From positions 54,436,001-54,500,000 of the forward strand of contig OX597828.1 in NCBI GenBank assembly GCA_951406725.2: 64,000 bases of DNA, written 5' to 3'. This DNA is from Octopus vulgaris. Its lineage: Eukaryota. The translations under genes were made by a program, and so were the position numbers. Shown piece after piece: positions 6,125 to 63,128 of the stretch; positions within the stretch are counted from its first letter, which is position 1; every line of letters begins with the position of its first letter. Below the pieces are notes generated by a model. That model saw only the letters and a list, made by a program, of their open reading frames with translations, did no database searches and was not told where the DNA came from.

Positions 6125-6142
6125 TATAAAATAAGAACGAAC

Positions 6143-6371
6143 CTATTTCTTTATTACCCACAAGGAGCTAAACACAGAGGAAACAAACAAGGACAGACAA
6201 ACGGTTTAAGTCGATTATATCGACCCCAGTGCGAAACTGGTACTTAATTTATCGACCCCGAAAGGATGAAAGGGAAAAGTCGATTACGGCGGAATTTGAA
6301 CTCAGAACGTAACGGCAGAGGAAATACTGCAAAGCATTTCGCCCGGAGTGCTAACGATTCTGCCAGCTCGC
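6143..6371 (-). mobile_element. SINE family B (tail-1) inserted into a mariner remnant, 12-bp TSD
   Basis: aagaacgaacct at 6133-6144 and 6374-6385 flanks the copy. Confidence 0.88.
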
Positions 6372-6373
6372 AG

Positions 6374-6964
6374 AAGAACGAACCTGTTAAACGACGAGCG
6401 GTCTGGAAGACCTGTCAAGAGTATCACCGCCAGTAATGGGGAGAAAATTCATCAGCCTGTGCACGAGGAACGTCGGAAGACAATCAACAACATTGATGAT
6501 GTTGTTAGGTCTGTCGTATGGTTCCGTGAAGGCAATTCTACCTCCGCGAAAAAATTAGATTCCTCACGACGACAATGCATCCAGTAACAGAGCTTTCCTC
6601 TCTCGTGAGGTTCTGACCAAAAAAAAACCCCAAAAAACAAAAACATGCTTTCGCTTCTGCACCCACCCTATTCGCCATATTTAGCGCATGTAGACTTCCA
6701 CCTCTTCCTCAAGATGAAAATACAGCTCAAAGGTCGCCATTTTAACGCCATTGTCGAGATCAAGAGCGAATCGCAGAAAGTCCTCGACTCGCTTACAGGA
6801 AACGACTTCAAGGCTGGATTCCAAAAGTGGCAGGGACGGTGGGACCGGTGTAGTGCTGCGCAAGGTGTCTGTTTCGAAGGTGTCTATTTACCTAAAACTT
6901 AGGTAAATAAATTATTTTTTTCTTAGACATCCCTAGTCCGGGAACTTTTTGATACCACCTCGTA
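6374..6964 (+). mobile_element. Tc1/mariner transposase remnant with right TIR
   Basis: DERSGRP, HDNAS, HPPYSPYLAHVDFHLF...KWQGRWDRC...FEG; ends in gggaactttttgataccacctcgta. Confidence 0.88.
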
Positions 6965-7776: not shown

Positions 7777-8512
7777 TGTAAGTGAATTTGTGTCTCTATC
7801 TCAGACGCGAGTGTTTGACGTGGCCGAATAGGTACGTACAAGTCAAAATACGAACGATCCCTTTCTCTTTCTCTACGTATATGTATGTGTGTACGTGTAT
7901 GTGTATGTGTGCGTCTGTGTATTTGTATGTGTGCGTCTGTGTATTCACGTATATACATATAAAGAAAGAGACAGTGCGTATTTTGACTTGTACGTAAACC
8001 TTGAGTAATCTCTCTCACTCATTTGGTCACGTCACACACGTAACACACACAAGCATACACAAAAAACACACATACCCACTGATACATATGTATATAATAA
8101 TTTAAGTCGGTCCAGTAGCCTGTTAGTCTCGTGTGCATAGGACGTGCTGCTGCGCTTCTTCAGACATGCTCAACAGATCTCTTTCAGCAGGTCTTTGGTA
8201 ATCTGATCTCTTAAAAAACTTTTTAAATGATAATTTTCAATAAAAAATATATCATGACTCAATAAAAAATTGCCCCCACCCACAAACACATACATGCATA
8301 CATACATATATACATACATATATACATACATAGATACACGCATACATACATAAAAGAAAACACACATCTGCACGTATACATTCATACATACATATATACA
8401 TACATACAAAAATACCCTGTTGCTGTTGTTGAAATTCCAATGAAGGGGCCTTGGAACTTGGTCAGAAGACGGATATTTCTCTATTGGCAAGAAATCTTGA
8501 AAGAAAACTGAA

Positions 8513-8920
8513 TAATCTTTTCTACTCTCGGCACAAGGTTCGAAATTTTTGGGGCGGGAGCCAGTCGGTTAGATCGACCCAGTATGCAACTGGTACTTAA
8601 TTTACCGACCCCGAAGGGATTAAAGGCAAAGTCGACCTCGGCGTAATTTGAACTCAGAACGTAAAGACAGACGATATACCTATTTCTTTGCTACCCACAA
8701 GAGGCTAAATACAGAGAGGACAAACAAGGACAGACAAACGGATTAAGTCGATTATATCGACCTCAGTGCGTAACTGGTACTTATTTAATCGACCTCGAAA
8801 GGATGAAAGGCAAAGGCAAAGTCGACCTCGGCGGAATTTGAACTCAGAACGTAGCGGCAGACGAAATACCACAAAGCATTTCGCCCGGCGTGCCAACGTT
8901 TCTGCCAGCTCGCTGCCTTA
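8513..8920 (-). mobile_element. Composite SINE B: head-body-tail1-body-tail2
   Basis: Two bodies joined at aaagaaatag|gtatatcgtctg (about 8680); flanked by aaaactgaat on both sides. Confidence 0.85.
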
Positions 8921-12599: not shown

Positions 12600-12815
12600 A
12601 GGCAAAGAGCTGGCAGAATCGTTAGCATGCCGGGTAAAATGCTTAGTGGCATTTCGTCCGTCTTCATGTTCTGAGTTCAAATTCCGTCGAGGTCGACTTC
12701 GTTTTTTGTGCTTTCGGGGTCGATAAATTAAGTACCAGTTTAGTACTGTGCTCGATGTAATCCACTTATCTACAGCTCCGAAATTGCTGTCATTGTGCCA
12801 AAATTTGAAATCAAT
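12600..12815 (+). mobile_element. SINE family B (tail-2)
   Basis: gagctggcagaatcgttagc...ttctgagttcaaattcc...ttgtgccaaaatttgaa. Confidence 0.8.
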
Positions 12816-12894
12816 ATCTTGGCTTATATTATGAGACGGATTCACCGTAACTTAACTATATGCTCTCTGCAATACCCCGTGCAGCATATAATGT

Positions 12895-13105
12895 CTCAAA
12901 TTTTGACACAAGGCCAGCAATATCGAGGAAGGGGCTAAGTCGATTAAACCGACCCCAGTGCTCAACTGGCACTTATTTTATCGACCCCGAAAATATGAAA
13001 AGCAAAGTCGACCACGGCGGAATTTGAACTCAAAACGTAAAGACAGACGAAATGCTGCTAAGCACTTCGCTCGGTCTGCTAACGATTCTGCTAGCGTGTC
13101 ACCTT
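12895..13105 (-). mobile_element. SINE family B (tail-2), inverted relative to the 12600 copy
   Basis: Reverse complement of the same motifs. Confidence 0.8.
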
Positions 13106-27530: not shown

Positions 27531-27980
27531 GAGGCGGTGAGCTGGAAGAATCGTGAGCACGACAGGCAAAACGCCTGGAGACAACTTCGTCCGTTCTTAC
27601 GTTCTGAGTTCAAATTTCACCGATGTCGACTTTGCCTTTCATCCTTTCGGGTCAATAAATTCAATACCTATTTCTTTACTACCTACAAGAGGCTAAACAC
27701 AGAGAGGACAAACAAGGACAGACAAACGGATTAAGTCGATTACATCAATCCCAGTGCGTAACTGGTACTTATTTAATCGACCTCGAAAGGATGAAAGGCA
27801 AAGTTGACCATGACGGAATTTGAACTCAGAACGTAGCGGCAGACGAAATACGGCTACGCATTTCGCCCGGCGTGCTAACGTTTCTGCTAGCTCGCAGCCT
27901 TAATACCAGTGAAACACTGGGGGACGATGTAATCGACTAGCCTCACCTCCCCAAAATTCAAGCCAGGTGCCAATAATAGA
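27531..27980. mobile_element. Old SINE B (+) carrying an inverted, nested SINE B tail-1 (-, 27669-27901)
   Basis: aatacc is duplicated at 27663-27668 and 27902-27907, and the host sequence resumes after the insert. Confidence 0.85.
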
Positions 27981-36436: not shown

Positions 36437-37049
36437 AAAGAATGAGACGGAAAGAGAGAGCGAAAGTAGATGAAAAAAGAAAGGGGAGAAGATAGAGGGA
36501 GAGAGAAAGAAAGGAGAAAGAGTGGAGGGATTTGATGGATGTTATATGTCATCGGAGTAGGTGCAAATGGGGTGTAAATGGGGTGTAACTGTGCGTCTCC
36601 ATCCTGCGGAACGAGAAAATCTCAAGAATTAACGATTATAAAGTCGAAAACTAATATAACATTAGTTTGCTATACATCTGGTATTAGAAGACCTGCCTGG
36701 GACTAATTGAAACATGGTTCTTTCTAATTCCCTATCTCTGCATATCTCATTTACTGCGTATGTGCATGTATATATGCATACATGTGTGTATATGTATGTG
36801 TGTATGTGCGTATGTGCGTGTGCTTACATGAATATACATTTGCAGGTGTATGTGTGCGGGAGCGCGCGTGTGTACATATACTAGTGCGAACACGCTATCC
36901 CAAAGATAGCGTATTTGGCATTATTTGGGATTGAATATGGTGAAATTAGTGCACGTTCTTTTTTACGCGCCCGCGCACACACATTTATGCGTGTGAGTGT
37001 TTGTGTATGTGTGTGCATGCACATGCGTGGGTGTTTATGATATCAATTT

Positions 37050-37441
37050 ATATTCTTTTCTATTCTAGGCACAAGGCCCGACATTTTTGGGGAGAGATCC
37101 AGTCGATTAGATCTACCCCAGTATGCAACTGGTACTTATTTTATCGACTTCGAAAGGATAAGAAGTAAAGTCGGCCTCGGTGGAATTTGAGCTCAGAACA
37201 TAAAGACAGACGAAATACCTATTTCTTTACTACCCACAGGAGGCTTAACACAGAGAGGACAAAGGACAGACAAACGGATTAAGTCGATTATATCGACCCT
37301 AGTGCGTAACTGGTACTTAATTTATCGAGCCCGAAAGGATGAAAGGCAAAGTCGACCTCGGCGGAATTTGAACTCAGAACGTAACGGCAGACGAAATACC
37401 GCTAAGCATTTCGCCCGGTGTGCTAATGTTTCTGCCGCCTT
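37050..37441 (-). mobile_element. Composite SINE B: head-body-tail1-body-tail2
   Basis: Same aaagaaatag|gtatttcgtctg junction (about 37219) as the 8513 composite. Confidence 0.85.
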
Positions 37442-59176: not shown

Positions 59177-59747
59177 GAGGAGGAATGGATAATGACAGTG
59201 CAATACATGTGACAAATGTTTCAATGGCATGGGAATTTATTTGCATTCTGTGTATTACGTAAGCCAAAATTATCTGACATTTCGTCGGGTATTCTGAACA
59301 ATCGATAGGAAAAGATAGATTGCTTACTATGGAAGAATTTTCAGGGTTTAAGCGAATTGATACATCCATACATACGTGTATACATGACGGAAGCCGACTC
59401 ATTACTATGACTACTTCTTAGACCCATTTCACCCTAAGATACATCCAAAAATTGATCTCCCCGTCGCCAATGACGTGTCATAAGGCTCTTAAGGCCTGGA
59501 AAGACCTATAAGACATTCCACACCGTCAACAAGTTAGCCTTCATGCAACAGCCTGGCCATCTGGGATGATGGAACCCCAAAATGCTGAGTGAATCCATTG
59601 GCAGATCCACGTACTCTTCTACACAACATGCGCGAAAGAACATGTTGGAAGATGGAGTTGCCTCTGTCGCCACGCTTATGGCTGAGTAGGCCAACCTTTG
59701 ACGAGCAAACACGACCAGCTGGTCACAGGACAGAAACTGTTTCAGGA

Positions 59748-60718
59748 AGGCGGCGAGCTGGCTGAAACGTTAGCACGCCGGCCGAAATGCTTAGCGGTAT
59801 TTCGTCTGCAGCTACGTTCTGAGTTCAAATTCCGCCGAGGTCGACTTTGTCTTTCATCCTTTCGGGGTCGATAAATTAAGTACCAGTTACGCACTGGGGT
59901 CGATGTAATCGACTTAATCCGTTTGTCTTTCCTTGTTTGTCCCCTCTGTGTGTAGCCTCTTGTGGGTAGTAAAGAAATAAGTATTTCGCCTGCCGCTACG
60001 TTCTGAGTTCAAATTCCGCCGAGGTCGACTTTGTCTTTCATCCTTTTCGGGGTCGATTAAATAAGTACCAGTTATGCACTGGGATCGATATAATCGACTT
60101 AATCCGTTTGTCTTTCCTTGTTTGTCCTCTCTGTGTGTAGCCTCTTGTGGGCAGTAAAGAAATAGGTATTTCGCCTGCCGCTACGTTCTGAGTTCAAATT
60201 CCGCCGAGGTCAACTTTGCCTTTCATCCTTTCGGGGTCGATTAAATAAGTACCAGTTACGCATTGGGGTCGATATAATTGACTTAATCCGTTTGTCTTTC
60301 CTTGTTTGTCCCCTCTGTGTGTAGCCTCTTGTGGGCAGTAAAGAAATAAGTATTTCGCCTGCCGCTACGTTCTGAGTTCAAATTCCGCCGAGGTCGACTT
60401 TGCCTTTCATCCTTTCGGGGTCGATTAAATAGGTACCAGTTACGCACTGGGATCGATATAATCGACTTAATCCGTTTGTCTTTCCTTGTTTGTCCCCTCT
60501 GTGTGTAGTCTCTTGTGGGCAGTAAAGAAATAGGTATTTCGCCTGCCGCTACGTTCTGAGTTCAAATTCCGCCGAGGTCGACTTTGCCTTTCATCCTTTC
60601 GGGGTCAATTAAATAAGTACCAGTTACGCACTGGGGTCGATATAATCGAATAAATCCCTTTGTCTGTCCTTGTTTGTCCCCTCTATGTGTAGCCCCTTGT
60701 GGGCAGTAAAGAAATAAG
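59748..60718 (+). repeat. SINE B tandem array: one head + five 184-185 bp body-tail1 units
   Basis: Units start at 59797, 59981, 60166, 60350 and 60534. Confidence 0.95.
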
Positions 60719-60744
60719 AAACTGATTTATGCCCATATATTTAC

Positions 60745-61625
60745 TAGCACGTTTGAAGTCTATGCAAAACTGTAGTTACCCAATTCATTAACACCAGTAT
60801 CAACCAGATTCCTCCGCAGCTCCCTATCTGAAGCAAAATGTTCCCAGGTGTTAGTATCGACATTAATATTTTTGAGAGTGTTTTTAAAATTGTCTTTTGA
60901 AACGCTTGCATCGCTGGCATTAGGGACATTTTCCTTTCTCCAGCGCATCATGTAACACTTGTTTTGGAATGTTGTCTTCCAAACGGAGAAACTGACCAGA
61001 CTATCCAAGCTGGTATATCATAATCATGAACTTGATACTCATCATTTTCCCCAGCTGCAGTACATATGATACCGTCATGAAAACTTCAGTATATTAACGC
61101 AAACATCGCTTGTGGAGTCGCTCGAGACGTTGGATATGCCTGCGGTAGGATGTCCAAGTTTTGCATCCATAAAACAGCGATGTTAAAACATCTCACCTTT
61201 CGTTACTGTTTTGATGTTCGATTGTGATCAAAGTCCCGAATCAAACTTTCCAAACGACTTAGAAAGTCTACCGTTGACTTCTACGTCAAGTGTATTAAAT
61301 CTAGATAGTGTGTTAAGGTAGACAGACTTCTAACTTTTTGCCCTTGACGTATATCGATGGTGGGGTATGTGGCTTGCCTTATGTTAATTGTAACGTGACT
61401 ACGGTTTTCTGAAGACAGATTGTTAAGTTCAAACTCATCATACTCGGCTACAAATCAGGCCACCAGAAGCTGCAGGTCTTCCTCGCTGTGGCTTACGAAA
61501 TCCCAATCATCAGCATAAAGGAGATCACGAAGGGGAGCCAGGAAGGTTTTGTTGCTGCAGTAAAGCGACAGATGTTGAAAAGCTTTCCTCTTGTACGGTA
61601 ACAGATGTGGATACCAGCGTCGCTA
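60745..61625 (-). mobile_element. RTE-1/BovB-like LINE remnant
   Basis: GIHICYRTRGKLFN, LRDLLYADD, TWTSYRRHIQRLERLH, KDNFKNTLK...TWEHFASDR, with frameshifts. Confidence 0.85.
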
Positions 61626-62469: not shown

Positions 62470-63118
62470 AGCTTAGTTAAAACCATACAACTGTTCATCG
62501 TCATCTTCACCAACTTGGAAAGGTTCTTAAACTTGGAAAATGGGTACCTTATGAATTGTCCGAAAGCAACCGCAAATCCCGAGTTGACATCTTGCTCATC
62601 TCTCCATTCTCGCGAACTCATTTTACCCTTTTTGGATAGACTTGTGACTGGTGACGAAAAATGGATCGTCTATCGAAATATTAAACGTCGTAAACAGTGA
62701 CTTGGTAAAAGGGAAAAGCTGAACCACAACCGAGATGGGAACTTCTTGGGAAGAGGTTCTTCTCTCTATCTGGTGGGATTGCAAAGGAGTAATTCACTTT
62801 GAATTGTTACCACCTAATGCAACAATTAATGCTCAAGTTTACTGTCAGCAATTAGATCGTTTGAACCAAGCTTTTAAGAAAAAAGACCCGCTTTAGTGAA
62901 TCGAAAAGGAGTGATGTTTCATCAGGACAATGCGTGACCCCACACTGCAAAGATCACATCACAGAAAATCGAAGAGCTTGGTTGGGAAAAAATTCCTCAT
63001 CCACCTTATTCTCCCGACCTTGCTCCTTCAGACTACCATTTTTTTCGTAGTTTATATGATCATTTGGAGGACATAACCTTCGTAAGCCAGGAAGAGATCC
63101 AAACTGACATTTCAGAAC
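62470..63118 (+). mobile_element. Mariner transposase remnant (D,D,D catalytic domain)
   Basis: GKWVPYEL, VTGDEKW, IWWDCKGV, FHQDNA*PH, HPPYSPDLAPSDYHFF, with stops and frameshifts. Confidence 0.9.
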
Positions 63119-63128
63119 CTTAATTCTA

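What the first reader, a model, noticed from the sequence alone, without database searches (positions are those of the whole stretch)
59748..60718. SINE turned into a tandem array with higher-order structure
Seen: one A-box head followed by five body-tail units. Junctions alternate aataagtatt / aataggtatt / aataagtatt / aataggtatt. Units 2 and 4 share gggatcgat. Units 1-4 share gtctttcc while unit 5 has gtctgtcc. Inference: an initial dimer was amplified as a two-unit block, i.e. a nascent SINE-derived satellite. Rolling reverse transcription of a circular RNA of about 184 nt is an alternative.
Basis: partly seen in the sequence, partly recalled or inferred. Interest (0 to 1): 0.7.

Follow-up and report, generated by a model that had tools for sequence, protein, structure and literature searches.

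The report
Stalled five-unit octopus SINE array
Five head-to-tail copies of part of a very common octopus-type jumping element sit between one pair of insertion scars; they likely grew by ordinary local DNA duplication and then stopped, a kind of array already described in reptiles and a clam.

Summary
The array is real: one 50-nt head and five 184-nt units (TRF period 184, 94%) between an 8-nt target duplication, inside a decayed LINE. The family is an Octopus SINE. Units share variants that dispersed copies lack, and the outer halves of units 1 and 5 keep family alleles. This favours DNA-level expansion of an inner block and argues against a rolling circle or five independent insertions. The 'higher-order' signal is two sites: a two-unit step is most parsimonious by one change (26 vs 27; 20 of 250 single-unit simulations do as well). 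The array is not nascent: duplicated blocks differ about 3% and a relative shares the insertion. The tail-to-body junction is family-wide: 3 of 6 same-tail copies in the window, hundreds of contigs in three organisms. Unit number and right junction are unchecked against reads. Similar arrays are published for squamates and a blood clam, and this scan already noted head-less arrays of this SINE elsewhere in the genome.

The parts
59732..59739 (+). left copy of the target-site duplication (AGAAACTG; imperfect extension to about 15 nt)
59747..59796 (+). single SINE head, 5' part of a tRNA-like region
   Evidence: 5' loose ends at 59747; aligned with 8 other heads
59759..59769 (+). A-box-like word (consensus recalled); T at 59763 is A in most family copies
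   Evidence: sequence; table 3
59796..59801 (+). GGTATT word at the head/body boundary, the same word that ends the tail; it sets the phase of every junction
   Evidence: (joint 59979 to 59796, goes back 184)
59797..59980 (+). unit 1: 5' part carries family alleles (positions 9, 77, 80, 109), 3' part carries array alleles (133, 156, 184); B-box-like word at 59823-59833
59981..60165 (+). unit 2 (185 nt; extra T makes the only T4 run in the array, 60044-60047); diagnostic A at 60084
60166..60349 (+). unit 3
60350..60533 (+). unit 4; diagnostic A at 60452
60534..60717 (+). unit 5: 5' part like units 2-4, 3' part with 6 of its 7 distinct sites; last base may belong to the target duplication
60717..60724 (+). 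right copy of the target-site duplication
59380..61625 (-). decayed LINE remnant interrupted by the array near the end of its reading frame (YADD motif near 61500, Cys/His tail motif just left of the head); RTE-type by recalled motifs; ends approximate
   Evidence: no Pfam hit

Best explanation
This is a five-unit tandem array of an abundant Octopus SINE inside one insertion site, which likely began as a one-headed dimer and was likely expanded by DNA-level misalignment (unequal crossing-over or slippage), 2 to 3 to 5 units, the last step probably copying a two-unit block, and has likely been static since. Shown: the anatomy, one target duplication around the whole, junctions phased at a 6-nt word shared by tail end and head/body boundary, variants shared among units, and mosaic terminal units. 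Inferred: the amplified block ran from about position 110-133 of one unit to the same point of the next, so the outer halves of units 1 and 5 were never copied. Inferred and weakest: the seed dimer came from one SINE copy landing at the 6-nt word of another. The array is likely a neutral by-product.
For: Units are closer to each other (mean 5.3%; units 2-4 3.6%) than to five dispersed same-tail copies (8.8%; dispersed among themselves 8.6%). They share bases that 0 of 5 dispersed copies have: position 156 in 5 of 5 units, 9 and 171 in units 2-5, 133 in units 1-4. At 133 about 91% and at 156 about 76% of contig depth in run X1 shows the other base. Unit 1's distinct sites lie 5' (5 of 6) and unit 5's lie 3' (6 of 7), Fisher p=0.029 (cut point chosen after seeing the data). 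An exhaustive search of 90,123 duplication histories gives 26 changes for 2-3-5, 27 for single-unit steps, 29 for 2-4-5 and 30 for a star. With the break at 111, blocks 1-3 and 2-4 differ by 6 and 5, other pairs by 9, 8, 7 and 6. Seed: 3 of 6 same-tail loci in the window continue from the tail into a head-less body at the same base. In two of them the second part has another tail type and is more diverged (26 of 168 vs 11 of 181, p=0.005), which local duplication cannot produce. Tail letters precede 59796 in 257, 179 and 383 contig records of three organisms (counts incomplete).
Against: The two-unit step rests on 2 sites and a one-change margin; likelihood ratio about 1.4 in simulation. One of the two alternating alleles also occurs in 1 of 5 dispersed copies. 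The history still needs two repeat changes (positions 54 and 171), and 291 of 625 two-step histories tie, so parsimony does not fix the break point. With the break at 132 the block pattern blurs (2-4 differ by 9). The tree has no well-supported branch (array clade 69/95). All five units share the position-156 variant, which fits a duplicated monomer as well as two independent templates. Unit number and right junction are not read-checked.
Confidence: 0.52

Rival explanations
1. Same DNA-level expansion, but by single-unit steps; the alternation is repeat mutation or gene conversion and there is no higher-order structure.
For: Only one change worse (27 vs 26); 20 of 250 single-unit simulations give the observed margin; it can explain position 54 (units 1-2), which the two-unit history cannot.
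Against: Two separate sites both follow the alternating split; 230 of 250 single-unit simulations gave a margin of 0 or less.
Confidence: 0.25
2. The multimer formed at another locus, was transcribed whole from its single A box and was retrotransposed here in one event.
For: One target duplication flanks the whole; the only T4 run inside the array is in unit 2, and single-base run lengths in this assembly may be unreliable (one G missing against two runs at 59502).
Against: No second copy of this haplotype in the window; it needs a 970-nt transcript copied in full. No genome was available to look further.
Confidence: 0.09
3. Serial self-insertion: each unit is a separate SINE copy that landed at the 6-nt word of the resident head.
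For: The junction is family-wide and mixed-tail dimers exist; earlier scan notes report a Tx1 LINE and this SINE targeting that site (unchecked leads).
Against: Units share variants absent from 5 of 5 dispersed copies and are more alike than dispersed copies; unit 1 and unit 5 change allegiance in mid-unit, not at junctions.
Confidence: 0.07
4. Rolling reverse transcription of a circular RNA of one unit, with template jumps onto linear SINE RNA at both ends.
For: The tail end and head/body boundary share 6 nt, so a circle would give these junctions. The three 2-versus-3 split sites alone do not reject a star (P 0.05-0.54).
Against: A plain star needs 3 of 4 array-specific sites to go back to the family base, plus a paired switch at 77 and 80 in one unit: joint P from 0 of 200,000 to 1.6e-4 depending on hot-spot weight. 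No CTGANGA core on either strand; no Rfam match at E up to 5. No RNA evidence was examined.
Confidence: 0.05
5. Assembly artefact.
For: High-copy repeat; unit number and right junction not read-checked; the 0.86-0.91 word share in three runs is weak support because other family copies supply many words.
Against: Units differ by 6-14 columns, nearly all substitutions, in a structured pattern; left junction present in organisms A and C; target duplication intact.
Confidence: 0.03

Closest known systems
TSD-(SINE)n-TSD arrays of the blood clam S. broughtonii (PMC11481361; section 15 read whole, other passages)
   Same: [quoted passage not shown]
   Different: There the first and inner units are also tail-truncated; here every unit keeps the full tail and the phase is fixed at a 6-nt word shared by tail end and head.
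SINE-derived satellites (sSat) of squamates (PMC10702118; parts 1, 3 and 4 of 5 read)
   Same: Tandem repeats of part of a SINE, 70-290 nt, with a longer terminal unit; alternating di- and trimeric monomer patterns reported in Arizona elegans; short loci are heterogeneous.
   Different: Only three middle monomers (the paper mostly used at least four); no long or subtelomeric arrays shown here; invertebrate host; one phase seems to dominate family-wide.
Tandem SINEU-3 and Tx1-Mar of crocodilians (PMC4494074; passages)
   Same: Tandem SINEs explained by sequential insertion at a preferred target; a model for the seed dimer here.
   Different: The target there is a Mariner element and whole SINEs sandwich a target duplication; here the site is in the SINE's own head, later heads are missing, and units share local variants.
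Animal non-LTR retrozymes (search listing and abstract starts only)
   Same: Tandem units of similar size; rolling-circle spread proposed.
   Different: No hammerhead core or Rfam ribozyme match here; the units are not star-like.
Octopus tRNA-derived SINEs OK, OR1, OR2 (Ohshima and Okada 1994; citation seen in PMC4824008, paper not read; names OK and OR2 recalled)
   Same: Octopus, tRNA-like head, high copy number.
   Different: No sequence comparison was possible, so the family name is open.

Membership tests
tRNA-derived SINE | A and B boxes in a tRNA-like head | tested here: inconclusive
   Box-like words at 59759-59769 and 59823-59833 by recalled consensus; the fold pairs the 5' GGCGG with CCGCC but z=-0.42; ARAGORN 0; Rfam 0.
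tRNA-derived SINE | Short, non-coding, dispersed at high copy number | tested here: met
   20 blastn hits in 64 kb; 140,497-362,888 contig records laid in three runs.
tRNA-derived SINE | Target-site duplications | tested here: met
   8 nt here; 12-13 nt read by eye at copies near 6140-6370 and 8510-8920.
tRNA-derived SINE | Tail shared with a partner LINE; Pol III transcription | not tested
   An earlier scan note proposes a Tx1 tail; not checked here. Tail hairpins were not significant.
SINE-derived satellite (sSat, PMC10702118) | Tandem repeat of a SINE portion with a longer terminal unit | tested here: met
   definition.
SINE-derived satellite (sSat, PMC10702118) | At least four middle monomers (working threshold) | tested here: not met
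   Three middle units; it works like an early sSat but falls under the paper's usual cut-off.
SINE-derived satellite (sSat, PMC10702118) | Homogenisation across loci, subtelomeric bias | not testable with these tools
   No genome held.
TSD-(SINE)n-TSD array (PMC11481361) | One target duplication, first head complete, later heads truncated | tested here: met
TSD-(SINE)n-TSD array (PMC11481361) | First and inner units tail-truncated ('usually') | tested here: not met
   All units keep the full tail.
Higher-order repeat | Units one period apart consistently more alike than neighbours | tested here: inconclusive
   2 sites, one-change margin, 20 of 250 null simulations.
Non-LTR retrozyme | Hammerhead ribozyme in each unit | tested here: not met
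   No CTGANGA on either strand; Rfam 0.
Non-LTR retrozyme | Circular RNA form | not testable with these tools
   RNA-like runs are held only as contigs, which cannot show circles.
Nin/Deu-domain SINE | Conserved central domain | not tested
   Resemblance recalled and named in an earlier scan note; no reference sequence was compared.

The most novel reading that the evidence does not exclude
The SINE builds its own satellite nursery: because its tail ends in the word that marks a retrotransposition target in its own head, one-headed dimers of one fixed phase are seeded at very many loci, and DNA-level doubling turns some of them into arrays like this one. Octopus genomes would then hold thousands of dated, same-phase replicate experiments in satellite birth, with a 2-3-5 doubling signature.
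Probability: 0.3. Interest if true: 0.6.

Novelty: new member of a known kind. Interest (0 to 1): 0.3.

Why it matters
On its own this is one small, stalled array of a published type. It extends SINE-derived tandem arrays to a cephalopod and records the hand-over from retrotransposition to DNA-level expansion in its terminal units. It also warns that the tail-to-body junction is common in genomic DNA and so is no marker of circular RNA. It would matter more if a genome-wide count showed many same-phase arrays with three or more units, because birth and stalling rates of satellites could then be measured across replicate loci.

Tried and rejected
No whole genome was held, so head+(unit)n loci could not be counted. 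Raw-read run X22 was useless: 10 of 12,895,792 reads were laid. The junction counts do not separate n=2 from n>2, nor same-tail from mixed-tail dimers except for 8, 5 and 7 contigs with a 184-nt go-back joint; no other locus with n>2 was seen by me. A junction motif scan of metagenome contigs found 0. A protein search with a junction-crossing frame found nothing; a one-unit frame found 1 hit among 11 candidates, a predicted Octopus vulgaris protein ending in the SINE frame, 94% identical, and nothing at near length. Pfam did not recognise the host LINE. Head and tail folds were not significant. The unit tree had 0 of 7 well-supported branches. Counting 2-versus-3 split sites did not reject a star. 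Small word shares in metagenome RNA runs were ignored. Paper searches for an octopus SINE array, same-site SINE multimers and Tx1 targeting of SINEs showed no description of this array in their listings; PMC13282606 (part 1 of 3 and passages), PMC4758252, PMC4824008 and PMC9795677 (passages) do not describe it in what I read. Repbase, Dfam, the 1994 octopus SINE paper and all supplements were not seen and may bear on novelty.

Full report
Observation. The window is microsatellite-rich animal DNA. TRF finds one array at 59796-60716, period 184, 5.0 copies, 94% matches. It follows a single 50-nt head that starts at about 59747. The units start at 59797, 59981, 60166, 60350 and 60534 and differ at 24 columns. 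The B-box-like word is inside each unit, so only the A-box part of the tRNA-like head is single (consensus recalled; ARAGORN and Rfam find nothing). An 8-nt duplication flanks the whole; 11 of about 5000 random pairs match as well. The array interrupts a decayed minus-strand LINE near the end of its frame (RTE-type by recalled motifs, no Pfam support). A frame read through one unit matches a predicted Octopus vulgaris protein at 94%, which places the family in Octopus.

The family and the junction. Blastn gives 20 hits in the window. Six loci carry this tail type. Three are monomers. Two (near 8500-8920 and 37050-37440, minus strand) are head + unit + a head-less body with a different tail. 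One is the array. All three multimers join at the same base, where the tail's last letters and the head/body boundary share GGTATT. In the mixed dimers the second parts are more diverged from each other than the first units (26 of 168 vs 11 of 181, p=0.005). That fits a young copy added to an old resident, though two subfamilies of the second part would look the same. In public contigs the junction is common: tail letters precede 59796 in 257, 179 and 383 records of organisms A, B and C, against 177, 232 and 248 records ending at the head's 5' end; a clean 184-nt go-back joint is listed in 8, 5 and 7 contigs (the tool says counts are incomplete). These data show dimers, not longer arrays. Earlier notes of this scan report head-less arrays of this SINE and a Tx1 LINE targeting its head on other pieces of the genome. 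I took the self-insertion seed from them as a lead and tested only the junction and the mixed dimers.

How five units arose. The units are closer to each other (5.3%) than to five dispersed same-tail copies (8.8%) and share bases that none of the five has, so they were copied locally or from one source rather than inserted independently. The terminal units are mosaics. Unit 1 differs from the inner units mainly in its 5' part and unit 5 mainly in its 3' part (p=0.029 with a cut chosen after the fact), and at several of these sites the terminal unit has the ordinary family base. This is what is left when a block running from mid-unit to mid-unit is duplicated. A plain star, as a one-unit rolling circle would give, needs 3 of 4 array-specific sites to revert and a paired switch at positions 77 and 80; the joint chance was at most 1.6e-4. 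The simpler count of split sites does not reject a star, so the case rests on the terminal mosaics. A circle with template jumps at both ends is not excluded, but neither strand has a hammerhead core.

Higher-order structure. Over 90,123 histories, the best with a final two-unit step needs 26 changes, the best single-unit history 27, 2-4-5 needs 29 and a star 30 (minimum 24). Simulated single-unit histories reach a +1 margin in 20 of 250 runs and two-unit histories give exactly +1 in 28 of 250. So the two-unit step is the best reading but close to a coin toss. It rests on two sites, one allele of which also occurs in a dispersed copy, and parsimony does not fix the break point.

Age and reality. 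The putative duplicate blocks differ at 6 and 5 sites, about 3%. A contig of organism C runs from the left flank into the head with 4.3% flank difference, so the insertion predates that split; its unit number in C is unknown. The array looks stalled, not nascent. An artefact is unlikely given the structured substitutions and the left junction in two organisms, but unit number and right junction were not checked against reads. One single-base gap against two runs at 59502 warns that the T4 run in unit 2 may not be reliable.

Comparison. PMC11481361 (section 15 read) describes TSD-(SINE)n-TSD arrays of 4-15 units in a blood clam, with one full head and head-truncated followers. PMC10702118 (parts 1, 3, 4 of 5) describes SINE-derived satellites in squamates, including alternating monomer patterns and growth by dimers. 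PMC4494074 (passages) explains tandem SINEs by sequential targeted insertion. The array works like these. It misses the squamate paper's usual four-middle-monomer threshold and differs from the clam arrays in keeping full tails at a fixed phase. Searches listed no description of the octopus case; repeat databases and supplements were not seen.

Verdict. A real, small, stalled SINE array of a known kind; higher-order structure suggested only; rolling circle unlikely. Interest 0.3. The boldest reading not excluded is that self-targeting seeds same-phase dimers genome-wide which DNA recombination then doubles (probability 0.3, interest 0.6); a genome-wide count would settle it.

Noticed in passing
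window 8500-8920 (-) and 37050-37440 (-): One-headed mixed dimers: same-tail unit followed at the same junction by an older body with another tail; their heads resemble the young monomers' heads (GAAAC) rather than the older copies' (GAATC), so the resident head may have been replaced or the dimer may move as a unit.
   Followed up: partly
window 27534-27900: A same-tail monomer inserted in reverse orientation into an older family copy, with the target word GGTATT doubling as the tail end.
   Followed up: partly
window 6135-6375 (-): Monomer whose tail end overlaps the first bases of a 12-nt target duplication, suggesting priming by tail-target microhomology.
   Followed up: no
tails at 8500-8575, 12752-12825, 12878-12950, 37045-37115, 60640-60724: Three tail types share a CCTTGTG core with different flanking stems; single folds were not significant.
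   Followed up: partly
window 62470-63120 (+): Broken mariner-type transposase (Pfam Transposase_1, E 2e-18).
   Followed up: no
runs X1, X4, X5 laid on window 59250-59985: Whole-element head-to-tail dimers (joint 59983 to 59747) in 3, 1 and 6 contigs, fewer than the head-less junction.
   Followed up: no
P0001: A predicted Octopus vulgaris protein ends in a reading frame of this SINE, probably a spurious gene model.
   Followed up: no
run X22: Carries the same species label as run X1 but only 10 of 12.9 million reads fit this abundant SINE; mislabelled or filtered.
   Followed up: no
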